Below, piece by piece: positions 11,825 to 63,224 of a DNA stretch of 64,000 nt; position 1 is the stretch's first letter; each line of letters opens with the position of its first letter. The stretch comes from a virus. Its lineage: Duplodnaviria; Caudoviricetes. The stretch covers positions 3,595 through 67,594 of IMG/VR virus record IMGVR_UViG_3300012952_000023. One strand, given 5' to 3'. The translations under genes were made by a program, and so were the position numbers. The notes under the pieces were generated by a model that saw nothing but the letters and a program-made list of their open reading frames with translations, made no database searches and had not been told where the DNA came from.

Positions 11825-12097
11825 ATGAGGGTAGCTGGTGATTCTGATTTTCATGACGCGCTAGCTGAAGAGTGGGGCGAGGAAGTTTTTCCTGTTAACG
11901 ATAAATCAGATTCCTTTCTTCATTTATACGAATTACTTGTTTCTAAAGGCTACAGTGAATCGTACGCTGAAGAAGTGGCTATTGGAATGCTGGAAGGACG
12001 TGAGCCAATGGCGAAAGAAACGACAAGATTCGCTCGTATCTACAAAGATACACCCCCTAGCGATAGATTTTGCGGCTCATCTAATACAGAGTCTTGA
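11825..12097 (+). CDS. Hypothetical acidic protein
   Basis: 90-aa ORF whose 3' end overlaps the endolysin start. Confidence 0.5.
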   Translation: MRVAGDSDFHDALAEEWGEEVFPVNDKSDSFLHLYELLVSKGYSESYAEEVAIGMLEGREPMAKETTRFARIYKDTPPSDRFCGSSNTES

Positions 12098-13208
12098 GGG
12101 ATGCGAGAAGGATGCTTACCTAGATCCCTTAGGGATTCCTACTATTTGTACTGGATTAACTCGCTACCCTGATGGAACCCATGTAATGATGGGTGATACA
12201 TGTCATTTCGATATATGTAGTAGTTATCTGAAACAAGAATTACTCAAGAATATTGTACCTGTTTTAGGGGTTCTTCCTGATTGGAATTATTTCGGTTACA
12301 AGAGGCAGGCAGTTTTAATAAGTTTCGCATGGAATTTCGGTGCGAAGTTTTATGAGGATAGCAAATATGAGGAGATAACAAAGATACTATTTGAAGGCTT
12401 CCAGTATCCTGAGAAGTATCAGGAGATACCTGCAATCTTAAATCTGTACATTAAAGATAAAGATGTTATTCTTCCTGGGTTAGTCAATCGTCGTAAAATC
12501 GAAGGTATTATGTGGACTCAAGAATCAGACGGTCAAATGACTTTTATTAGTCGTAAAGATACTGATCTCAAAAAAGCACCTATTAGCAGTCGCTTTTTAT
12601 CAACAGCAGGAAAAGTAGAGTGTAAGCAGGGAGCGACAATTAAAGTTACAAGGGTTGAGGAAATACCAGGAGAAAATTACTCATGGGTTCGCTTCGAAGG
12701 TAGTGGAGACAGGTGGGCAATTTATATGCCAGATTGGAGAGAAAAAAGCTCGAGAAATTCTCAAGAAGAAGATGGTATTAATTGGTTGGATTTTGCTTGT
12801 CCTGTCGGAAAATATTTAACAGCTGGTGAAATTTTGCAATATGACGCACGAAGAGTTCCTGAGGTGGGTAGTGAAATAGAGAAGACATTAATTAACACTT
12901 GCAGGGAATACGATAAAATTCGTGACGCTTGGGGAGAGCCTTTAGGAGTTACCAGCTTTTACAGGCCTGAACCAATCAACAGAGAGTGTGGAGGGAGCGA
13001 GAAATCTCATCACGTACTAGGCACAGCAATGGATATTTATACTATCGATGGCAGGACATTAGATAAGTTTCACCTATGGCTTGTACAACGATGGGATGGA
13101 GGTTATGGAGATTACAGAAGTAAAGGATTTATACATATAGATGTTCGAAATGGTCAAGGATTTAAATCTCAACCTGGGGGAAAACCTAAGTTTTTATGGG
13201 GCTTTTAA
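11937..13208 (+). CDS. Two-domain endolysin: GH24 (T4-type) lysozyme plus C-terminal peptidase M15
   Basis: E-x8-D-x5-T triad (E-GCEKDAYL-D-PLGIP-T) and GLVNRRKIE. C-terminal TSFYRPEPINRECGGSEKSHHVLGTAMD...GFIHIDVR. True start uncertain, possibly GTG at 12000. Confidence 0.88.
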   Translation: MFLKATVNRTLKKWLLECWKDVSQWRKKRQDSLVSTKIHPLAIDFAAHLIQSLEGCEKDAYLDPLGIPTICTGLTRYPDGTHVMMGDTCHFDICSSYLKQELLKNIVPVLGVLPDWNYFGYKRQAVLISFAWNFGAKFYEDSKYEEITKILFEGFQYPEKYQEIPAILNLYIKDKDVILPGLVNRRKIEGIMWTQESDGQMTFISRKDTDLKKAPISSRFLSTAGKVECKQGATIKVTRVEEIPGENYSWVRFEGSGDRWAIYMPDWREKSSRNSQEEDGINWLDFACPVGKYLTAGEILQYDARRVPEVGSEIEKTLINTCREYDKIRDAWGEPLGVTSFYRPEPINRECGGSEKSHHVLGTAMDIYTIDGRTLDKFHLWLVQRWDGGYGDYRSKGFIHIDVRNGQGFKSQPGGKPKFLWGF

Positions 13209-14221
13209 CGGTAGTAACGGTCGTATTGTGGATTAGAGTCTTTCGGTTGAGGGGTTGGTTGCAATAGTTGATTAGTTCCTACACCTATACCGACACCTAG
13301 TAGCCCAGCCAATATTTGGTCGTCAAAGCCTTTTGCTAAAGGAGTACCAGAACTGGTTGTTTTAGTTGTTTTTTCTTCTACTTTTTTAATCGTTTTATCG
13401 GTTGTTTCTTTTAAGTCTTTAGTTTTAGCTTTTTCAGCTTTAGAAGGAACTATCTTTTTATCTGAGGACTTCCTTTTTGGTTTAGGTAATGCAGTCGTAT
13501 TTTTAGTTACCTTTGGTTTAGCAGGAGTTGCTTTAACGGGCTTTTGAGGTGTCGGAATTAAAGGGTTTTGAGTATCAGTTGTATTAGATGTGACTAGGGG
13601 CTTTTGGGGTGTATTTATCGGGTTATTGTTTTGAGGTTGTAAAACTTGATCAGTAAAAGATAAATTTTCAGTTACTACGGGTTGAGTCCTAGGTTCGTTT
13701 TGGTTAGTTAGAATTTCCCATTCAGCCTGTCTCTTAGAGTCATCGTAAAAATCATTCCATGCCTCCTCAGATCCTTCTGGAGAAATATATTCTTCTAACT
13801 GTTTCTTTCTGTTGTCCGTGAGCTTCTCAGGTGTTGGGATGCCTGGTGTTTGCTCCTGTATTTGATCTACTTGAGGTAATGGCTTGCTTCTTTCTAACGT
13901 GTCTCTATTTGCAGGCAAGCTAGCTTTAATTGGCGGAGGAGAAACAGCGTCAACCACATTAGTTGGATCTCTTCCTGTATCTCTAAATCCTTGAGCAATG
14001 GCTCGGTCTCTCAGAGTCGTTCCAGTTACTACCCTTCCAGTATCAGCCAGTGCTCTTTGAGCTATACCTTTGACTCCCGATAAACTTGCTTGAGTAATGG
14101 AACTAACGCTAGGCTCTCCTATAGCTTGGTTGACGAGGTTACCGAATTTTTGGAATTGCTGGTTACCGGCTTTCTGCCGATACATTTCCCGTACTAGTTT
14201 TGTTCTTCTATTAAGAGTCAT
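13205..14221 (-). CDS. Hypothetical P/T/K-rich protein
   Basis: 338-aa ORF with an internal duplication (NPINTPQKP / NPLIPTPQKP). Confidence 0.6.
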   Translation of the reverse strand: MTLNRRTKLVREMYRQKAGNQQFQKFGNLVNQAIGEPSVSSITQASLSGVKGIAQRALADTGRVVTGTTLRDRAIAQGFRDTGRDPTNVVDAVSPPPIKASLPANRDTLERSKPLPQVDQIQEQTPGIPTPEKLTDNRKKQLEEYISPEGSEEAWNDFYDDSKRQAEWEILTNQNEPRTQPVVTENLSFTDQVLQPQNNNPINTPQKPLVTSNTTDTQNPLIPTPQKPVKATPAKPKVTKNTTALPKPKRKSSDKKIVPSKAEKAKTKDLKETTDKTIKKVEEKTTKTTSSGTPLAKGFDDQILAGLLGVGIGVGTNQLLQPTPQPKDSNPQYDRYYR

Positions 14222-14644
14222 CTAGACCACCTTAATACCTAAGGCATTAGCGTTGAATTGAACTGTATCACCTGATTGAACATCGACTGATGTTGTCAAG
14301 GCTCCAGAAGCGATAAAGTTTCCAGAAGTCTGGGCATCCCATAATCCGAAGTGGGTCAAGGTTTGTTGTGTCCCATTCTGTGCGTTAGGAGTTATTTGCA
14401 CGGTATTGGTATTTTTGATCTCGAAACCACTAGGAGAAGCTCCTGTTACTCCGGTGAATGCAGAAGAGTTTATTGCTGTTCTATTAGCATTACCAGTGAC
14501 CGTTAATGTTACGTCACTAGAAGTACCAGCAGTGCCAGGATCGCCAGTATGGATGCTGACGTAGACATTACTTAGTTGCGTTGGAAATGAAGATCCTTTA
14601 ATCCAATTCAGGATCTTTTGACCAAAATACTGGGAAAACGCCAT
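14222..14644 (-). CDS. Small beta-rich tail-associated structural protein
   Basis: Pattern AFSQYF...ILNW...VYVSIHTGDPG...THFGLWDAQTSGNFIASGAL...GDTVQF, typical of a widespread phage tail fibre-associated family. Confidence 0.65.
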   Translation of the reverse strand: MAFSQYFGQKILNWIKGSSFPTQLSNVYVSIHTGDPGTAGTSSDVTLTVTGNANRTAINSSAFTGVTGASPSGFEIKNTNTVQITPNAQNGTQQTLTHFGLWDAQTSGNFIASGALTTSVDVQSGDTVQFNANALGIKVV

Positions 14645-15665: not shown

Positions 15666-16238
15666 TCAGCGTAACTTCTTTTTCATCGCATGGTGAACCG
15701 CAGGAGTAATTGTATCTATTAGTGTTTCTAATGCTTCTCTATTTAGAGATAATTGAAAAATCGCTGATTGGTTTTGTCTTGGATAACATTTTATATTCCA
15801 GTAATCTTGTAGCCATTGAGATAGATTTTCGTATTCTTGATCTGAATACTTTCCTTTTATTGACCCTTTACGTCCAATGATTCTGCCTTGGTCGATCCAT
15901 AAAGAAGTTAATCCATGTATTCCTGCAAGTTGTAGTGCTTGACTAGATAGGTACGCAATGTCTTGTGGATACAATATTTCGTATACCCTCCATAAATGGT
16001 CACTATGCAAGCGTAATCGCTCCTTGTCATAGTAAGTGTCAGTCGCTAGTCGATCCCAAAAGACTTCTAAAGGGGTGACATGTAATTTACGTAATGTTCT
16101 TAATTGATGATTAAGGTATGTTTTATCAACCTCAGACCTAGATATTTCAAGCCAAGGCCTTTTGTTCTTGCCCTTGAGCGATACTTTCCCTTTGCCCAAG
16201 CAATAACTCAGTGCGCGCACTACGAATCGAGCTTGCAT
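15666..16238 (-). CDS. LAGLIDADG-like endonuclease homologue with degenerate catalytic motifs
   Basis: Motif 1 ALSYCLGKG and motif 2 LTSLWIDQG, against the usual LGDG and WxMDDG. Confidence 0.65.
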   Translation of the reverse strand: MQARFVVRALSYCLGKGKVSLKGKNKRPWLEISRSEVDKTYLNHQLRTLRKLHVTPLEVFWDRLATDTYYDKERLRLHSDHLWRVYEILYPQDIAYLSSQALQLAGIHGLTSLWIDQGRIIGRKGSIKGKYSDQEYENLSQWLQDYWNIKCYPRQNQSAIFQLSLNREALETLIDTITPAVHHAMKKKLR

Positions 16239-16848
16239 TCCAAGTTTCTCCTGTGAATAAGTGTTGTCTAGATTTAGGGGCGTAAGGCAGTAATATAGAT
16301 TTTATTTTTTGAGTCTGTTCAGCTGTAAAGGACAGGCGAGGACGAATATAGTAACGATTCATAGTTGCACAGGCTCCAGTCAGCGTTTCCAACCATTGAG
16401 AGACTAACTGAGCCTCTTCTTCAGTGCTGCCTACTCTTGCTAGATTTGTTGCTCCTTTTTCTAGCTGCCTAGAACCTTCTGCCCACATCCACGCAGCAGC
16501 CTCCCCTCCAAGTAAACCTAGCGTCGCTTTAGTTATTTGTCTTTCCCCTCGAGGATATAAGAGATTATGTATGGGTCTTAATTTATTAGTCGATACTCTA
16601 AAACGAAGAATTGGAGTTGTTTGACCGTTGGCTCGAGGAGTTGTCTTATAGGGAACAATTTTTGCTTTTGTTGGGATAAATTGCCTGAATTCTTTAACTT
16701 TCTCTTCGAGAAAAGCTGATTCAGAAGGTCCCGCTGTGAGCGTTAATTGAACATAACCTCCTCCAGGAGTGCGATAAGAAACAAGGCTGCCATCTGCGAG
16801 CAATAATCCAAGTAATCCTCGAACGTCTATTGCGTCCAAAAGTTTCAC
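16147..16848 (-). CDS. LAGLIDADG-family homing endonuclease-like protein
   Basis: Motif 1 GLLGLLLADGS, motif 2 AAWMWAEGS; YRFRVST-like strand RFRVSTNKLRPIHNLLYP. Confidence 0.72.
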   Translation of the reverse strand: MKLLDAIDVRGLLGLLLADGSLVSYRTPGGGYVQLTLTAGPSESAFLEEKVKEFRQFIPTKAKIVPYKTTPRANGQTTPILRFRVSTNKLRPIHNLLYPRGERQITKATLGLLGGEAAAWMWAEGSRQLEKGATNLARVGSTEEEAQLVSQWLETLTGACATMNRYYIRPRLSFTAEQTQKIKSILLPYAPKSRQHLFTGETWNASSIRSARTELLLGQRESIAQGQEQKALA

Positions 16849-16873
16849 CCTACGTACTTCATTTATAGTAGTG

Positions 16874-16894
16874 ATGACACGTCGATAGTGTCAT
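16874..16894. promoter_or_regulatory. Inverted repeat between the divergent LAGLIDADG and capsid genes
   Basis: ATGACAC-GTCGATA-GTGTCAT, perfect 7-bp arms. Confidence 0.5.
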
Positions 16895-16928
16895 TAAATT
16901 TCTATAAGCTACGGAGTGATTGCGATCC

Positions 16929-18071
16929 ATGTGGATTGACAACGATTTTCCAAAGCTGTTAGGCGCTGAACTCTATAGGCCCCATCCCGGTTATGTAATC
17001 GAGATGGCTGTAGAACCAGTAGTGGTACACGATTTCGCGAAACAGCCCGGACAAACGGTCCAGCTCGACCGCTATCGCTTTTGGGGAAATCCTGGTAACA
17101 AGGATTCCAGAGAGCGTACAGCAGATCAAACACTTGGTACAGCATCTAGCCGCAATATTGTTAAAGACAAGGTTCTCGTAACCTTAAAAGAGTACACAGG
17201 TCCTGCCGATCCAACAGATGCGACATCTCCTAGTACTTTTAAAGTTGCAAGAGAAACTCTTTTAACAGCACAACGTCTACTTTTAGACACAGGTAACCTC
17301 AACGTTTTTCACCAGAGCATCGGGTCCTTGACCCTTTTGGATGATTACAGACGTTGGCGTGACAGGGTTTTCGCTGATGAGCTATTCAAAGCGGAAGCTA
17401 ACGGAGAAGCAACAGATAGCCAAGGTGGATATTTTTATCCAGGTAGTAAGGCTAAGGGCGGATCTGCTCCATTCATTAGTTATGCAGCAGGCTCCTCAGG
17501 TAAGTTCGACGTAAAAACCGACTTACTTCAGGTTGTTAAGGACATGCGTAAGCGTAACGTTCCAACGTTCGCTGATGGCTACTACAGATGCATCGCTGAT
17601 CCAACAGCAATGATGCACCTTCGTCAAAACGAGGCATTCAGAGAAATTGCCCGGTACGCAGGAAACGGAATGGTGAATCCACTCCAACCTGAGCAAGCTC
17701 CTAACGCTAACTTCTTCCAAGGTATGGGTCCTGCTTATGGACAAGCTGGATTTGTAGCTGGTCAGCCGGTGATGCCTACCGGATTTTTGTTTGAGGGCGT
17801 AAGATGGTTCGAATCAACCAACTTGCCTGAGAAATCTTTACAGGTAACAATCACTGACGCGAGCATCACTAATACAGTGACAACCGCTGCTCCTATGCTC
17901 TTCTTTGGCCCTCAGGCTATTGGTGTAGGTATTGGTGGTAACAACGCTCAAATTCTTCTTAATAATAACGACGATTTTTCGCGCTTTATTATTATGATTT
18001 GGTCCCTCTTTGCTGGGTTCGAAATGCTGAATAAGGATTTCGTGACTTGTGCCTTCAGTTTCGTTTACTAA
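16929..18071 (+). CDS. Major capsid protein
   Basis: ATG at 16929 after GGAG; MWIDNDFPKLLGAELYRPHP start; about 380 aa; HK97-like motifs GQTVQLDRYRFW, GFLFEGVRWFES and FFGPQAIG. Confidence 0.85.
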   Translation: MWIDNDFPKLLGAELYRPHPGYVIEMAVEPVVVHDFAKQPGQTVQLDRYRFWGNPGNKDSRERTADQTLGTASSRNIVKDKVLVTLKEYTGPADPTDATSPSTFKVARETLLTAQRLLLDTGNLNVFHQSIGSLTLLDDYRRWRDRVFADELFKAEANGEATDSQGGYFYPGSKAKGGSAPFISYAAGSSGKFDVKTDLLQVVKDMRKRNVPTFADGYYRCIADPTAMMHLRQNEAFREIARYAGNGMVNPLQPEQAPNANFFQGMGPAYGQAGFVAGQPVMPTGFLFEGVRWFESTNLPEKSLQVTITDASITNTVTTAAPMLFFGPQAIGVGIGGNNAQILLNNNDDFSRFIIMIWSLFAGFEMLNKDFVTCAFSFVY

Positions 18072-63153: not shown

Positions 63154-63164
63154 AAAGGAGAAAG

Positions 63165-63224
63165 CGTCGGACCGCAAGGTCGCAACCATCAACACCATAC
63201 GACGGGGGTGTTGCTGATTGGAGG
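63165..63224 (+). ncRNA. Glutamine-II (Downstream-peptide)-like riboswitch
   Basis: 5' CGTCG pairs with loop CGACG (63200-04); GACC-GCAA-GGTC hairpin; CAACACC/GGTGTTG stem; CCATACGACGGGG loop; ends on the GGAGG SD. Confidence 0.75.

What the first reader, a model, noticed from the sequence alone, without database searches (positions are those of the whole stretch)
15666..16929. Tandem free-standing LAGLIDADG pair, one catalytically degenerate, head-to-head with the major capsid gene
Two overlapping (92 nt) two-motif LAGLIDADG-like ORFs sit outside any intron or intein. The 233-aa protein keeps acidic residues in both motifs (LLADG, WAEG). The 190-aa protein has K and Q at those positions (LGKG, IDQG). 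They share an 80-bp divergent intergenic region with the capsid gene, which holds a perfect ATGACAC-N7-GTGTCAT inverted repeat. Established knowledge: LAGLIDADG folds have been domesticated as regulators (WhiA) and maturases. Inference: a domesticated DNA-binding pair controlling capsid expression, or an active/inactive homing cassette targeting the capsid locus of competing phages.
Basis: partly seen in the sequence, partly recalled or inferred. Interest (0 to 1): 0.7.

Follow-up and report, generated by a model that had tools for sequence, protein, structure and literature searches.

The report
Paired LAGLIDADG genes beside capsid gene
A marine cyanophage keeps two related "homing nuclease" genes, one apparently able to cut DNA and one long dead, beside its capsid gene at a spot that selfish DNA elements repeatedly invade; the palindrome next to them belongs to the capsid message and is not their binding site.

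Summary
Two overlapping minus-strand ORFs (233 and 190 aa) both pass the Pfam LAGLIDADG_2 cut-off, and both fold like I-SceI/I-WcaI. They are distant paralogues. The 233-aa protein keeps the two catalytic acids. The 190-aa protein has K and Q at those positions.

The window is an S-EIV1-like marine cyanophage contig.
- Every related contig with a capsid protein at least 87% identical, and enough flank, carries both genes intact in the same place. dN/dS is about 0.06-0.12 in close pairs.
- More distant lineages show the same synteny. The B copy is dead in all of them, and the A copy has lost its first acid in several.
- The sister clade has an unrelated HNH-NUMOD4 gene in exactly this slot.
- An ORF-less group I intron splits capsid codon 7 sporadically in both clades. 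Next to it lies a tract of substitutions that looks like co-conversion.
- DNA identity between close relatives jumps from 60-89% to 99-100% at the A233/capsid junction.
- The inverted repeat is a hairpin of conserved structure and variable sequence. It follows a -10-like box and is also present in the HNH clade.

Best reading: a long-resident homing-endonuclease cassette at a capsid-proximal homing hot spot, with a selected but non-catalytic paralogue, and not a capsid regulator. This scan has noted capsid-intron plus free-standing LAGLIDADG modules before, in giant viruses.

The parts
16147..16848 (-). A233: I-SceI-like two-motif LAGLIDADG protein with acidic residues in both motifs (D19, E124). 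The probable true start is TTG at 16839. The tail from about residue 200 (16147-16250) is disordered and overprints the start of B190.
   Evidence: Pfam PF03161 36.7 bits. AF2 pLDDT 79; Foldseek top hits I-WcaI 6x1j and I-SceI 1r7m, E 1e-9 to 1e-10. D is invariant and E is present in 31 of 33 distinct orthologues. TTG start after TAGGG.
15666..16238 (-). B190: paralogous two-motif LAGLIDADG protein with K and Q at the catalytic positions. ATG start preceded by AGGAG (16248-16252).
   Evidence: Pfam PF03161 27.6 bits. hhalign against the A233 profile: 98% probability, E 2e-13. AF2 pLDDT 95; Foldseek I-WcaI/I-SceI TM 0.76. The catalytic positions are non-acidic (one Asp exception at motif 1) and variable in 32 orthologues and in the B-like copies of five more distant lineages (motif 1 not covered in one). 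dN/dS 0.06-0.12 in close pairs.
16147..16238 (-). 92-nt overlap of the two ORFs, with B190 in the +1 frame of A233.
   Evidence: the overlap is 47-161 nt in the clade, always in the same frame relation. It is only 4 nt in lineages L090, L093 and L094.
16864..16869 (+). Conserved -10-like box TATAGT, 2-9 nt upstream of the hairpin. Putative capsid promoter element (inference).
   Evidence: Nearly invariant in 26 distinct intergenic sequences.
16872..16896 (+). Most likely the 5' stem-loop of the capsid mRNA.
   Evidence: MFE -11.0 kcal/mol, z -3.6. There are 18 distinct stems at the same position in relatives, several with G.U pairs on the + strand. An equivalent hairpin is present in the HNH clade.
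16929..18071 (+). Major capsid protein gene. The position homologous to the intron insertion site of relatives lies between 16947 and 16948 (after nt 19 of the ORF).
   Evidence: phrog_1357. Group I intron at this site in L042, L043, L085, L087, L088 and L086.

Best explanation
The two genes are an old cassette derived from a homing endonuclease. It sits in a homing hot spot just upstream of the major capsid gene of S-EIV1-like marine cyanophages.

A233 is a free-standing, monomeric I-SceI-type LAGLIDADG endonuclease that still has both catalytic acids. It is translated weakly, from a TTG start. Inferred mechanism: in mixed infections it cuts the DNA of related phages at or near the 5' end of the capsid gene. 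Repair from the cassette-bearing genome then copies the cassette, the flanking capsid sequence and, where present, the ORF-less intron in codon 7.

B190 is a paralogue that lost both catalytic acids before the known lineages split. It has been kept by purifying selection and has a strong start (ATG after GGAG). It most likely acts as a non-cleaving DNA-binding partner. My favoured guess is that it shields the phage's own copy of the target site or tempers A233.

The inverted repeat is not their operator. It is the 5' stem-loop of the capsid mRNA.

Shown here: fold, paralogy, catalytic-residue status, fixation and selection, the alternative occupant of the slot, the intron and its site, and the recombination boundary. 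Inferred: cleavage activity, the target, and the role of B190.
For: - Fold and family. Paralogy.
- A233 catalytic D is invariant and E is present in 31/33 orthologues. B190 catalytic positions are variable and non-acidic, with one Asp exception at motif 1 (L024).
- All 30-plus related loci with enough flank have both genes intact. dN/dS is 0.08/0.06 (window vs L004) and 0.12/0.12 (window vs L003).
- The same slot, strand and distance (106-122 nt from the capsid ATG) holds an intact HNH_3+NUMOD4 gene in 37/37 sister-clade loci. Those genomes have no LAGLIDADG_2 gene anywhere.
- A group I intron (RF00028, 80.2 and 85.9 bits) lies after nt 19 of the capsid ORF in five contigs of the pair clade (one of them, L085, ends before the pair's position) and one HNH-clade contig.
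- The intron-plus and intron-minus relatives L042 and L037 differ by a precise 237-nt indel. They show 18 substitutions in the 73 nt just 3' of the site, against 3 in the 320 nt upstream.
- A second, different intron-like insertion splits the capsid gene in L091.
- Synonymous divergence of the pair (dS 0.5-1.5) is 4-12 times that of the adjacent capsid gene (0.12-0.13) in the same genome pairs. DNA identity jumps from 60-89% to 99-100% at about 16814.
- The start signals are conserved.
- Literature framework: collaborative homing and HEG islands next to essential phage genes (PMC10448857, citing Zeng, Bonocora & Shub 2009 and Bonocora & Shub 2009).
Against: - Within its clade the pair is fixed. 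No empty site was seen there, which is not what a freely cycling selfish element shows.
- The same synteny reaches lineages where the A copy is only 35-48% identical.
- In at least seven 50%-identity representative clusters the A copy lacks the first catalytic acid yet is full length. P0155 and P0159 (45% identical) and P0147 and P0162 (40% identical) share such states. The fold can therefore be retained without canonical double-strand cleavage.
- The intron does not track the pair. It is rare and also occurs with the HNH gene.
- No cleavage site is known, and no function for B190 is demonstrated.
Confidence: 0.5

Rival explanations
1. Both proteins are fully domesticated DNA-binding factors with a function in the phage's own cycle, for example control of the divergent late or fibre operons in the manner of WhiA. 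Under this reading the catalytic acids of A233 are a remnant or serve another role.
For: The synteny is deep and stable across lineages, with both genes intact. dN/dS is about 0.1. B is dead in every lineage seen. The A copy has lost the motif-1 acid in several diverged, full-length lineages. WhiA and the bI3 maturase are among the structural matches. Pair-clade genomes lack the sigma-70 gene that every sufficiently sampled HNH-clade genome carries near the capsid gene.
Against: Neither protein has an HTH or other added domain; the LAGLIDADG core fills each of them. The sister clade and S-EIV1 do without the pair, and S-EIV1 also lacks the sigma gene. The inverted repeat is not specific to the pair. 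A233 keeps D and E across the clade. The slot is occupied elsewhere by a typical homing HNH gene, and an intron targets the adjacent codon 7.
Confidence: 0.22
2. Division of labour for the capsid intron: A233 is the homing endonuclease and B190 is a trans-acting splicing maturase for the ORF-less group I intron in capsid codon 7.
For: Catalytically dead LAGLIDADG proteins serve as group I intron maturases; the bI3 maturase is among the fold matches. An ORF-less intron lies about 100 nt from the cassette in some relatives.
Against: The window has no group I intron, even at E<=0.1. B190 is conserved in about 30 intron-less genomes. The same intron also lives in an HNH-clade genome without any LAGLIDADG gene. 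The intron is small and matches the self-splicing consensus well (80-86 bits).
Confidence: 0.08
3. The genes are ordinary selfish relics: two old homing endonuclease genes that hitch-hike next to an essential gene and decay slowly, with no present activity or function.
For: B190 lacks the catalytic residues. The A copies of some lineages lack them too. The A233 tail and stop position drift, from 215 to 256 aa.
Against: No frameshift or premature stop appears in any of about 36 A and 34 B orthologues that are not cut by contig ends. dN/dS is 0.06-0.12 in close pairs. B190 models at pLDDT 95. The translation signals are conserved.
Confidence: 0.07
4. The two ORFs are one gene, read through by a programmed +1 frameshift in the 92-nt overlap or split by a sequencing error, which would give a four-motif fusion protein.
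For: The overlap is long and its frame relation is constant.
Against: In three more distant lineages the genes overlap by only 4 nt, the pattern of coupled but separate genes. B190 has its own ATG and GGAG. Each protein models as a complete two-domain LAGLIDADG unit. The overlapped A233 tail is disordered and varies in length.
Confidence: 0.02

Closest known systems
Collaborative homing: free-standing F-CphI with the ORF-less psbA group I intron of cyanophage S-PM2 (Zeng, Bonocora & Shub 2009; Bonocora & Shub 2009; as cited and discussed in PMC10448857 and PMC6083498)
   Same: A free-standing endonuclease gene in a cyanophage lies next to a conserved gene. In some relatives that gene carries an ORF-less group I intron close to the endonuclease gene. 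There are signs of DNA-level exchange at the site.
   Different: The endonuclease family differs (LAGLIDADG here, Endo VII-like F-CphI there). The target gene is the capsid gene. The endonuclease is fixed in its clade while the intron is rare, and the intron also occurs with an unrelated HNH gene. There is a second, dead paralogue. Cleavage at the intron insertion site has not been tested.
HEG islands and nuclease genes at boundaries of genetic exchange in phages (Barth et al. 2023, PMC10448857)
   Same: Different endonuclease families occupy the same locus next to an essential gene. A sharp boundary of sequence identity coincides with the nuclease gene.
   Different: That work concerns ICP1 and T4-like phages, with mostly T5orf172, HNH and GIY-YIG genes. 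At least 8 of the 20 LAGLIDADG genes in that dataset are intein-encoded. No active plus dead paralogue pair is described in the passages read.
I-SceI / I-WcaI (monomeric LAGLIDADG_2 endonucleases of mitochondrial rRNA introns; PDB 1r7m, 6x1j)
   Same: Both proteins have the same two-domain fold (TM 0.65-0.77) and belong to the same Pfam family. A233 has an acidic residue before the Gly in both motifs.
   Different: Here the genes are free-standing in a phage and not intron-encoded. Sequence identity is 11-14%. B190 has K and Q at the catalytic positions.
WhiA and the bI3 maturase (domesticated LAGLIDADG proteins)
   Same: B190, like them, keeps the fold but lacks the catalytic acids and is under selection.
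   Different: B190 has no C-terminal HTH domain as WhiA has. The window has no cognate intron, as bI3 has. No function of this kind was shown.
Capsid-gene introns in phages (Cluster J mycobacteriophages, PMC3706429)
   Same: A probable group I intron lies in a major capsid gene, and the genomes are rich in free-standing endonuclease genes.
   Different: There the LAGLIDADG ORF lies inside the intron and the free-standing genes are HNH. The hosts and phage lineage are different.

Membership tests
LAGLIDADG_2 (PF03161), I-SceI-like monomeric endonucleases | Profile match above the curated threshold | tested here: met
   36.7 bits (A233) and 27.6 bits (B190) against a cut-off of 25; repeated on the genome.
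LAGLIDADG_2 (PF03161), I-SceI-like monomeric endonucleases | Two alpha-beta-beta-alpha-beta-beta-alpha domains in one chain, packed through two LAGLIDADG helices | tested here: met
   AF2 models (pLDDT 79 and 95) show the expected order of elements. The best PDB matches are I-WcaI and I-SceI, E 3e-10 to 5e-9, TM 0.65-0.77.
LAGLIDADG_2 (PF03161), I-SceI-like monomeric endonucleases | Acidic residue at the last-but-one position of each LAGLIDADG motif (metal ligands) | tested here: met
   This row is for A233. D19 is invariant. E124 is present in 31/33 orthologues, with Q in one and D in one.
LAGLIDADG_2 (PF03161), I-SceI-like monomeric endonucleases | Acidic residue at the last-but-one position of each LAGLIDADG motif (metal ligands) | tested here: not met
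   This row is for B190. It has K16 and Q117. In 32 orthologues these positions are K/V/T/R/D/N and Q/R/H/T/S/K/L. The B-like copies of more distant lineages are likewise non-acidic (motif 1 not covered in L089). B190 has the fold but not the enzyme's defining residues.
LAGLIDADG_2 (PF03161), I-SceI-like monomeric endonucleases | Site-specific DNA cleavage | not testable with these tools
   Needs purified protein and substrate.
Free-standing homing endonuclease gene | Not embedded in an intron or intein | tested here: met
   No group I intron in the window. The ORFs have their own starts and stops between the fibre-module genes and the capsid gene.
Free-standing homing endonuclease gene | Presence/absence polymorphism among related genomes at one locus | tested here: inconclusive
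   Between clades the feature is met: the pair, an HNH gene, or neither (S-EIV1) occupies the locus. Within the clade the pair is fixed and no empty site was seen.
Free-standing homing endonuclease gene | Recombination or co-conversion signature at the locus | tested here: met
   There is an identity step at about 16814 and a 4-12-fold dS contrast with the capsid gene. A dense tract of substitutions lies 3' of the intron site in L042 vs L037.
Collaborative homing (endonuclease plus ORF-less intron) | ORF-less group I intron in the neighbouring gene | tested here: not met
   This holds for the window itself. The feature is met in relatives L042, L043, L087 and L088, and in L085, whose contig ends before the pair's position.
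Collaborative homing (endonuclease plus ORF-less intron) | Intron and endonuclease travel together | tested here: not met
   The intron was seen in one sub-lineage of the pair clade only, and also in an HNH-clade contig, L086.
Collaborative homing (endonuclease plus ORF-less intron) | The endonuclease cuts intron-less alleles at the intron insertion site | not testable with these tools
   Needs a cleavage assay.
WhiA-type domesticated LAGLIDADG regulator | C-terminal helix-turn-helix DNA-binding domain added to a degenerate LAGLIDADG core | tested here: not met
   There is no further Pfam domain. The LAGLIDADG core spans residues 14-172 of the 190 in B190. The A233 tail is disordered.
LAGLIDADG maturase | Cognate intron in the same genome | tested here: not met
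   No RF00028 hit in the 64-kb window at E<=0.1. The 3.6 kb of the record outside the window were not scanned.

The most novel reading that the evidence does not exclude
The dead paralogue B190, and the dead A copies of other lineages, may be a selected target-site guard. Under this reading it is a LAGLIDADG protein that no longer cuts but binds the conserved 5' end or upstream region of the phage's own capsid gene. That would shield the region from the phage's own nuclease and from rival homing nucleases (the HNH clade, intron-borne enzymes). The result would be a two-protein nuclease plus immunity system built from one fold. It would explain why a dead homing endonuclease has stayed intact next to this hot spot over deep divergence.
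Probability: 0.2. Interest if true: 0.75.

Novelty: new variant of a known kind. Interest (0 to 1): 0.6.

Why it matters
Free-standing LAGLIDADG genes are uncommon in phages. A conserved pair of one apparently active copy and one long-dead copy has, as far as I could find, not been described. The locus offers a natural series for studying how homing nucleases persist, turn over and become domesticated. The series runs through the pair, an HNH gene in the same slot, an ORF-less intron 100 nt away in both backgrounds, and a second intron deeper in the same capsid gene. It is also a new, abundant marine example of nuclease-driven mosaicism at a capsid gene, which bears on how cyanophage lineages exchange structural modules. 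A233 could also be a new monomeric meganuclease specificity.

Tried and rejected
- Sequence searches of the PDB with A233, B190 and the A233 profile found nothing useful. Only fold comparison placed the proteins.
- Megablast and tblastn against isolated phages found only S-EIV1 for the capsid gene and nothing for A233.
- RNAalifold on a MAFFT alignment of the intergenic regions predicted no structure, because the hairpins were not in register. Folding each sequence separately showed them. No formal covariation test on a structural alignment was done.
- An attempt to collect orthologues of two A-copy lineages that lack catalytic residues (P0153, P0155) from IMG/VR found none. dN/dS inside those lineages could therefore not be measured.
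- The idea that the pair replaces the phage sigma factor was considered, because pair and sigma gene are mutually exclusive in the genomes searched. It was set aside because S-EIV1 has neither and because the contrast amounts to two clades only.
- The operator reading of the inverted repeat was rejected.
- The fusion or frameshift reading was rejected.
- PADLOC and NCBIfam added nothing.
It was rerun from files.
Full report
**What is there.** The window belongs to a 67.6-kb IMG/VR viral contig, estimated about 80% complete. Its closest isolate is Synechococcus phage S-EIV1, whose capsid region is 68.5% identical at the protein level.

On the minus strand lie two ORFs: 16147-16848 (233 aa, "A233") and 15666-16238 (190 aa, "B190"). 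They overlap by 92 nt. Both match Pfam LAGLIDADG_2 above its cut-off. The + strand gene starting at 16929 is the major head protein (phrog_1357). The inverted repeat ATGACAC-N7-GTGTCAT is at 16874-16894.

**The proteins.** The two proteins are distant paralogues. BLASTP gives 23% identity (E 2e-5). Comparing profiles of 21 orthologues each gives 98% probability (E 2e-13) over 159 columns.

AlphaFold models built on those alignments reach pLDDT 79 for A233 and 95 for B190. The A233 tail after about residue 200 is disordered. For both models the best PDB matches are the monomeric two-domain enzymes I-WcaI and I-SceI (E 3e-10 to 5e-9, TM 0.65-0.77). I-DmoI, the bI3 maturase and WhiA follow. Sequence search of the PDB found nothing.

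The catalytic positions differ between the two families:
- In A233 the residue before the Gly of each motif is acidic: D19 (LLADG) and E124 (WAEG).
- Across 33 distinct orthologues the Asp is invariant. The Glu is present in 31, with Q in one and D in one.
- In B190 these positions are K16 and Q117.
- Across 32 orthologues they vary freely: K/V/T/R/D/N at the first and Q/R/H/T/S/K/L at the second.
- The neighbouring Asp of B190's second motif (W-x-D-x-G) is invariant.

**Distribution and selection.** A search of IMG/VR with the capsid protein returned 80 loci.
- Every locus whose capsid protein is at least 87% identical, and that has enough upstream sequence, carries both genes in the same place and orientation. 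A233 is 54-94% identical and B190 40-96% identical.
- No orthologue that is not cut by a contig end has a frameshift or early stop.
- dN/dS in close pairs is 0.08 and 0.06 (window vs L004) and 0.12 and 0.12 (window vs L003) for A233 and B190.
- The start signals are conserved: TTG after TAGGG for A233, and ATG after GGAG for B190.

A profile search of 1.84 billion representative proteins found only 122 relatives of A233, so the family is small. The contigs behind five of the more distant representatives were read, and four of them (L090, L091, L093, L094) show the capsid gene head-to-head with an A-like gene and then a B-like gene. In L090 and L094 an up264-like gene and a Gp80-type fibre gene follow. 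L089 is too short to show more than the two genes. In three of these lineages the two genes overlap by only 4 nt. The 92-nt overlap of the window's clade is therefore derived, probably through loss of the old stop codon.

The B-like copy lacks acidic residues at the catalytic positions that could be read in all these lineages. The A-like copy is intact in some representatives (P0146, P0149, P0150, P0154, P0157, P0166). In others it lacks the first acid (P0147, P0151, P0153, P0155, P0159, P0162, P0167). All of these are full length and 35-50% identical to each other.

**The slot is a landing site for mobile elements.** Loci with 80-85% capsid identity lack the pair. Four nearly complete genomes of that clade have no LAGLIDADG_2 gene anywhere. 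On the same strand, 106-122 nt from the capsid ATG, all 37 such loci with flank carry an intact 116-170-aa HNH_3+NUMOD4 gene. S-EIV1 has neither gene, and its capsid gene follows same-strand genes.

While aligning the intergenic regions I found that L042 and L043 have a 237-nt insertion after nt 19 of the capsid ORF. Rfam scores it as a group I intron (80.2 bits, E 1.5e-19). The boundaries fit the rules: the exon ends in U and the intron ends in G.

A scan for the intron core found the same intron, 98% identical, in L085, L087 and L088. L087 and L088 carry the pair; L085 ends before that position. It also found a 219-nt relative at the identical site in L086, which belongs to the HNH clade (85.9 bits).

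L037 and L042 are about 95% identical overall and differ by the precise intron indel. They show 3 differences in the 320 nt upstream of the site and 18 in the 73 nt just downstream. This is the pattern expected from co-conversion during DNA-based homing.

In L091 the capsid gene is split again, near codon 136-139. The insert is about 1.19 kb, with a partial group I match and an antisense ORF with a faint LAGLIDADG_3 hit. The window itself has no group I intron, even at E<=0.1.

**Recombination boundary.** Between the window and L003, L005 or L007, DNA identity is 60-89% across the pair. It rises to 99-100% from about 16814 through the capsid gene and the next gene. Accordingly, dS is 0.5-1.5 for the pair and 0.12-0.13 for the capsid gene in the same genome pairs. 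This matches the published finding that nuclease genes sit at boundaries of genetic exchange between phages (PMC10448857).

**The inverted repeat.** All 26 distinct intergenic sequences of the clade have a hairpin 2-9 nt after a nearly invariant TATAGT-like box. The stems differ: there are 18 distinct 5' arms, and the mean z against shuffles is -2.6. Several stems contain G.U pairs only if read on the + strand.

The HNH clade has an equivalent hairpin upstream of the same SD and ATG, again with compensatory variants. The repeat therefore belongs to the capsid 5' leader and not to the LAGLIDADG genes. Monomeric two-domain LAGLIDADG proteins bind asymmetric sites, so a palindrome is not their natural target; this point rests on established knowledge of the family.

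**Interpretation.** The evidence fits a cassette derived from a homing endonuclease at a capsid-proximal homing hot spot. The closest published frameworks are collaborative homing (F-CphI and the psbA intron) and HEG islands.

Three things do not fit a simple selfish element: fixation within the clade, deep synteny, and the selected dead paralogue. I therefore put 0.5 on [quoted passage not shown]. I put 0.22 on a fully domesticated DNA-binding pair, 0.08 on nuclease plus maturase, 0.07 on functionless relics and 0.02 on a fusion product.

The role of B190 is inference only. Shielding of the phage's own target site is my favoured guess, at about 0.2.

**Earlier notes of this scan.** Capsid-gene introns next to free-standing LAGLIDADG genes were noted before in giant viruses, in two cases with a small partner gene. 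I did not test those notes.

Noticed in passing
L042:3029-3265 (also L043, L085, L087, L088) and L086:2835-3053: An ORF-less group I intron (237 or 219 nt) lies after nt 19 of the major capsid ORF. It occurs in both the LAGLIDADG-pair clade and the HNH clade, at the same insertion site. A dense tract of substitutions lies just 3' of the site in L042 vs L037.
   Followed up: yes
L091:1502-2693: The capsid gene is split near codon 136-139 by an insert of about 1.19 kb. The insert has a partial group I intron match (32 bits, below the gathering score) and a 312-aa ORF on the opposite strand with a faint LAGLIDADG_3 hit. This would be a second, different intron site in the same gene.
   Followed up: partly
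L040:4114-5070 and whole records behind L047, L058, L065, L066, L073: Every HNH-clade genome with enough sequence encodes a full sigma-70-family protein (regions 1.2, 2, 3, 4). In L040, L047 and L050 its gene lies about 1-2 kb upstream of the capsid gene. Six pair-clade genomes, including one 100% complete, and S-EIV1 have none.
   Followed up: partly
window 13205-14221 (-): The 338-aa low-complexity ORF is absent from close relatives L003, L005 and L007, where the flanks abut precisely (window 13208 next to 14223). It is a recent indel between the endolysin and the fibre genes.
   Followed up: no
window 11937-13208 (+): A two-domain lysin: phage lysozyme (PF00959) fused to an M15 peptidase (PF08291).
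   Followed up: no
window 14222-14644 (-): The 140-aa protein matches PF23140 (podophage GP4 fibre I protein gp80, E 7e-29). This gene and the 264-aa gene next to it travel with the LAGLIDADG pair in the lineages whose contigs reach that far.
   Followed up: partly
window 63162-63214 (+): A sub-threshold match to the glutamine-II riboswitch aptamer (27.1 bits against a gathering score of 33, E 0.014).
   Followed up: no
window 16929-16990 vs HNH-clade loci: There are fixed synonymous differences between the clades just 3' of the intron site. Capsid nt 28-36 read AARCTGYTAGG in the pair clade and AAGCTTCTTGG in the HNH clade. These are candidate target-site polymorphisms.
   Followed up: partly
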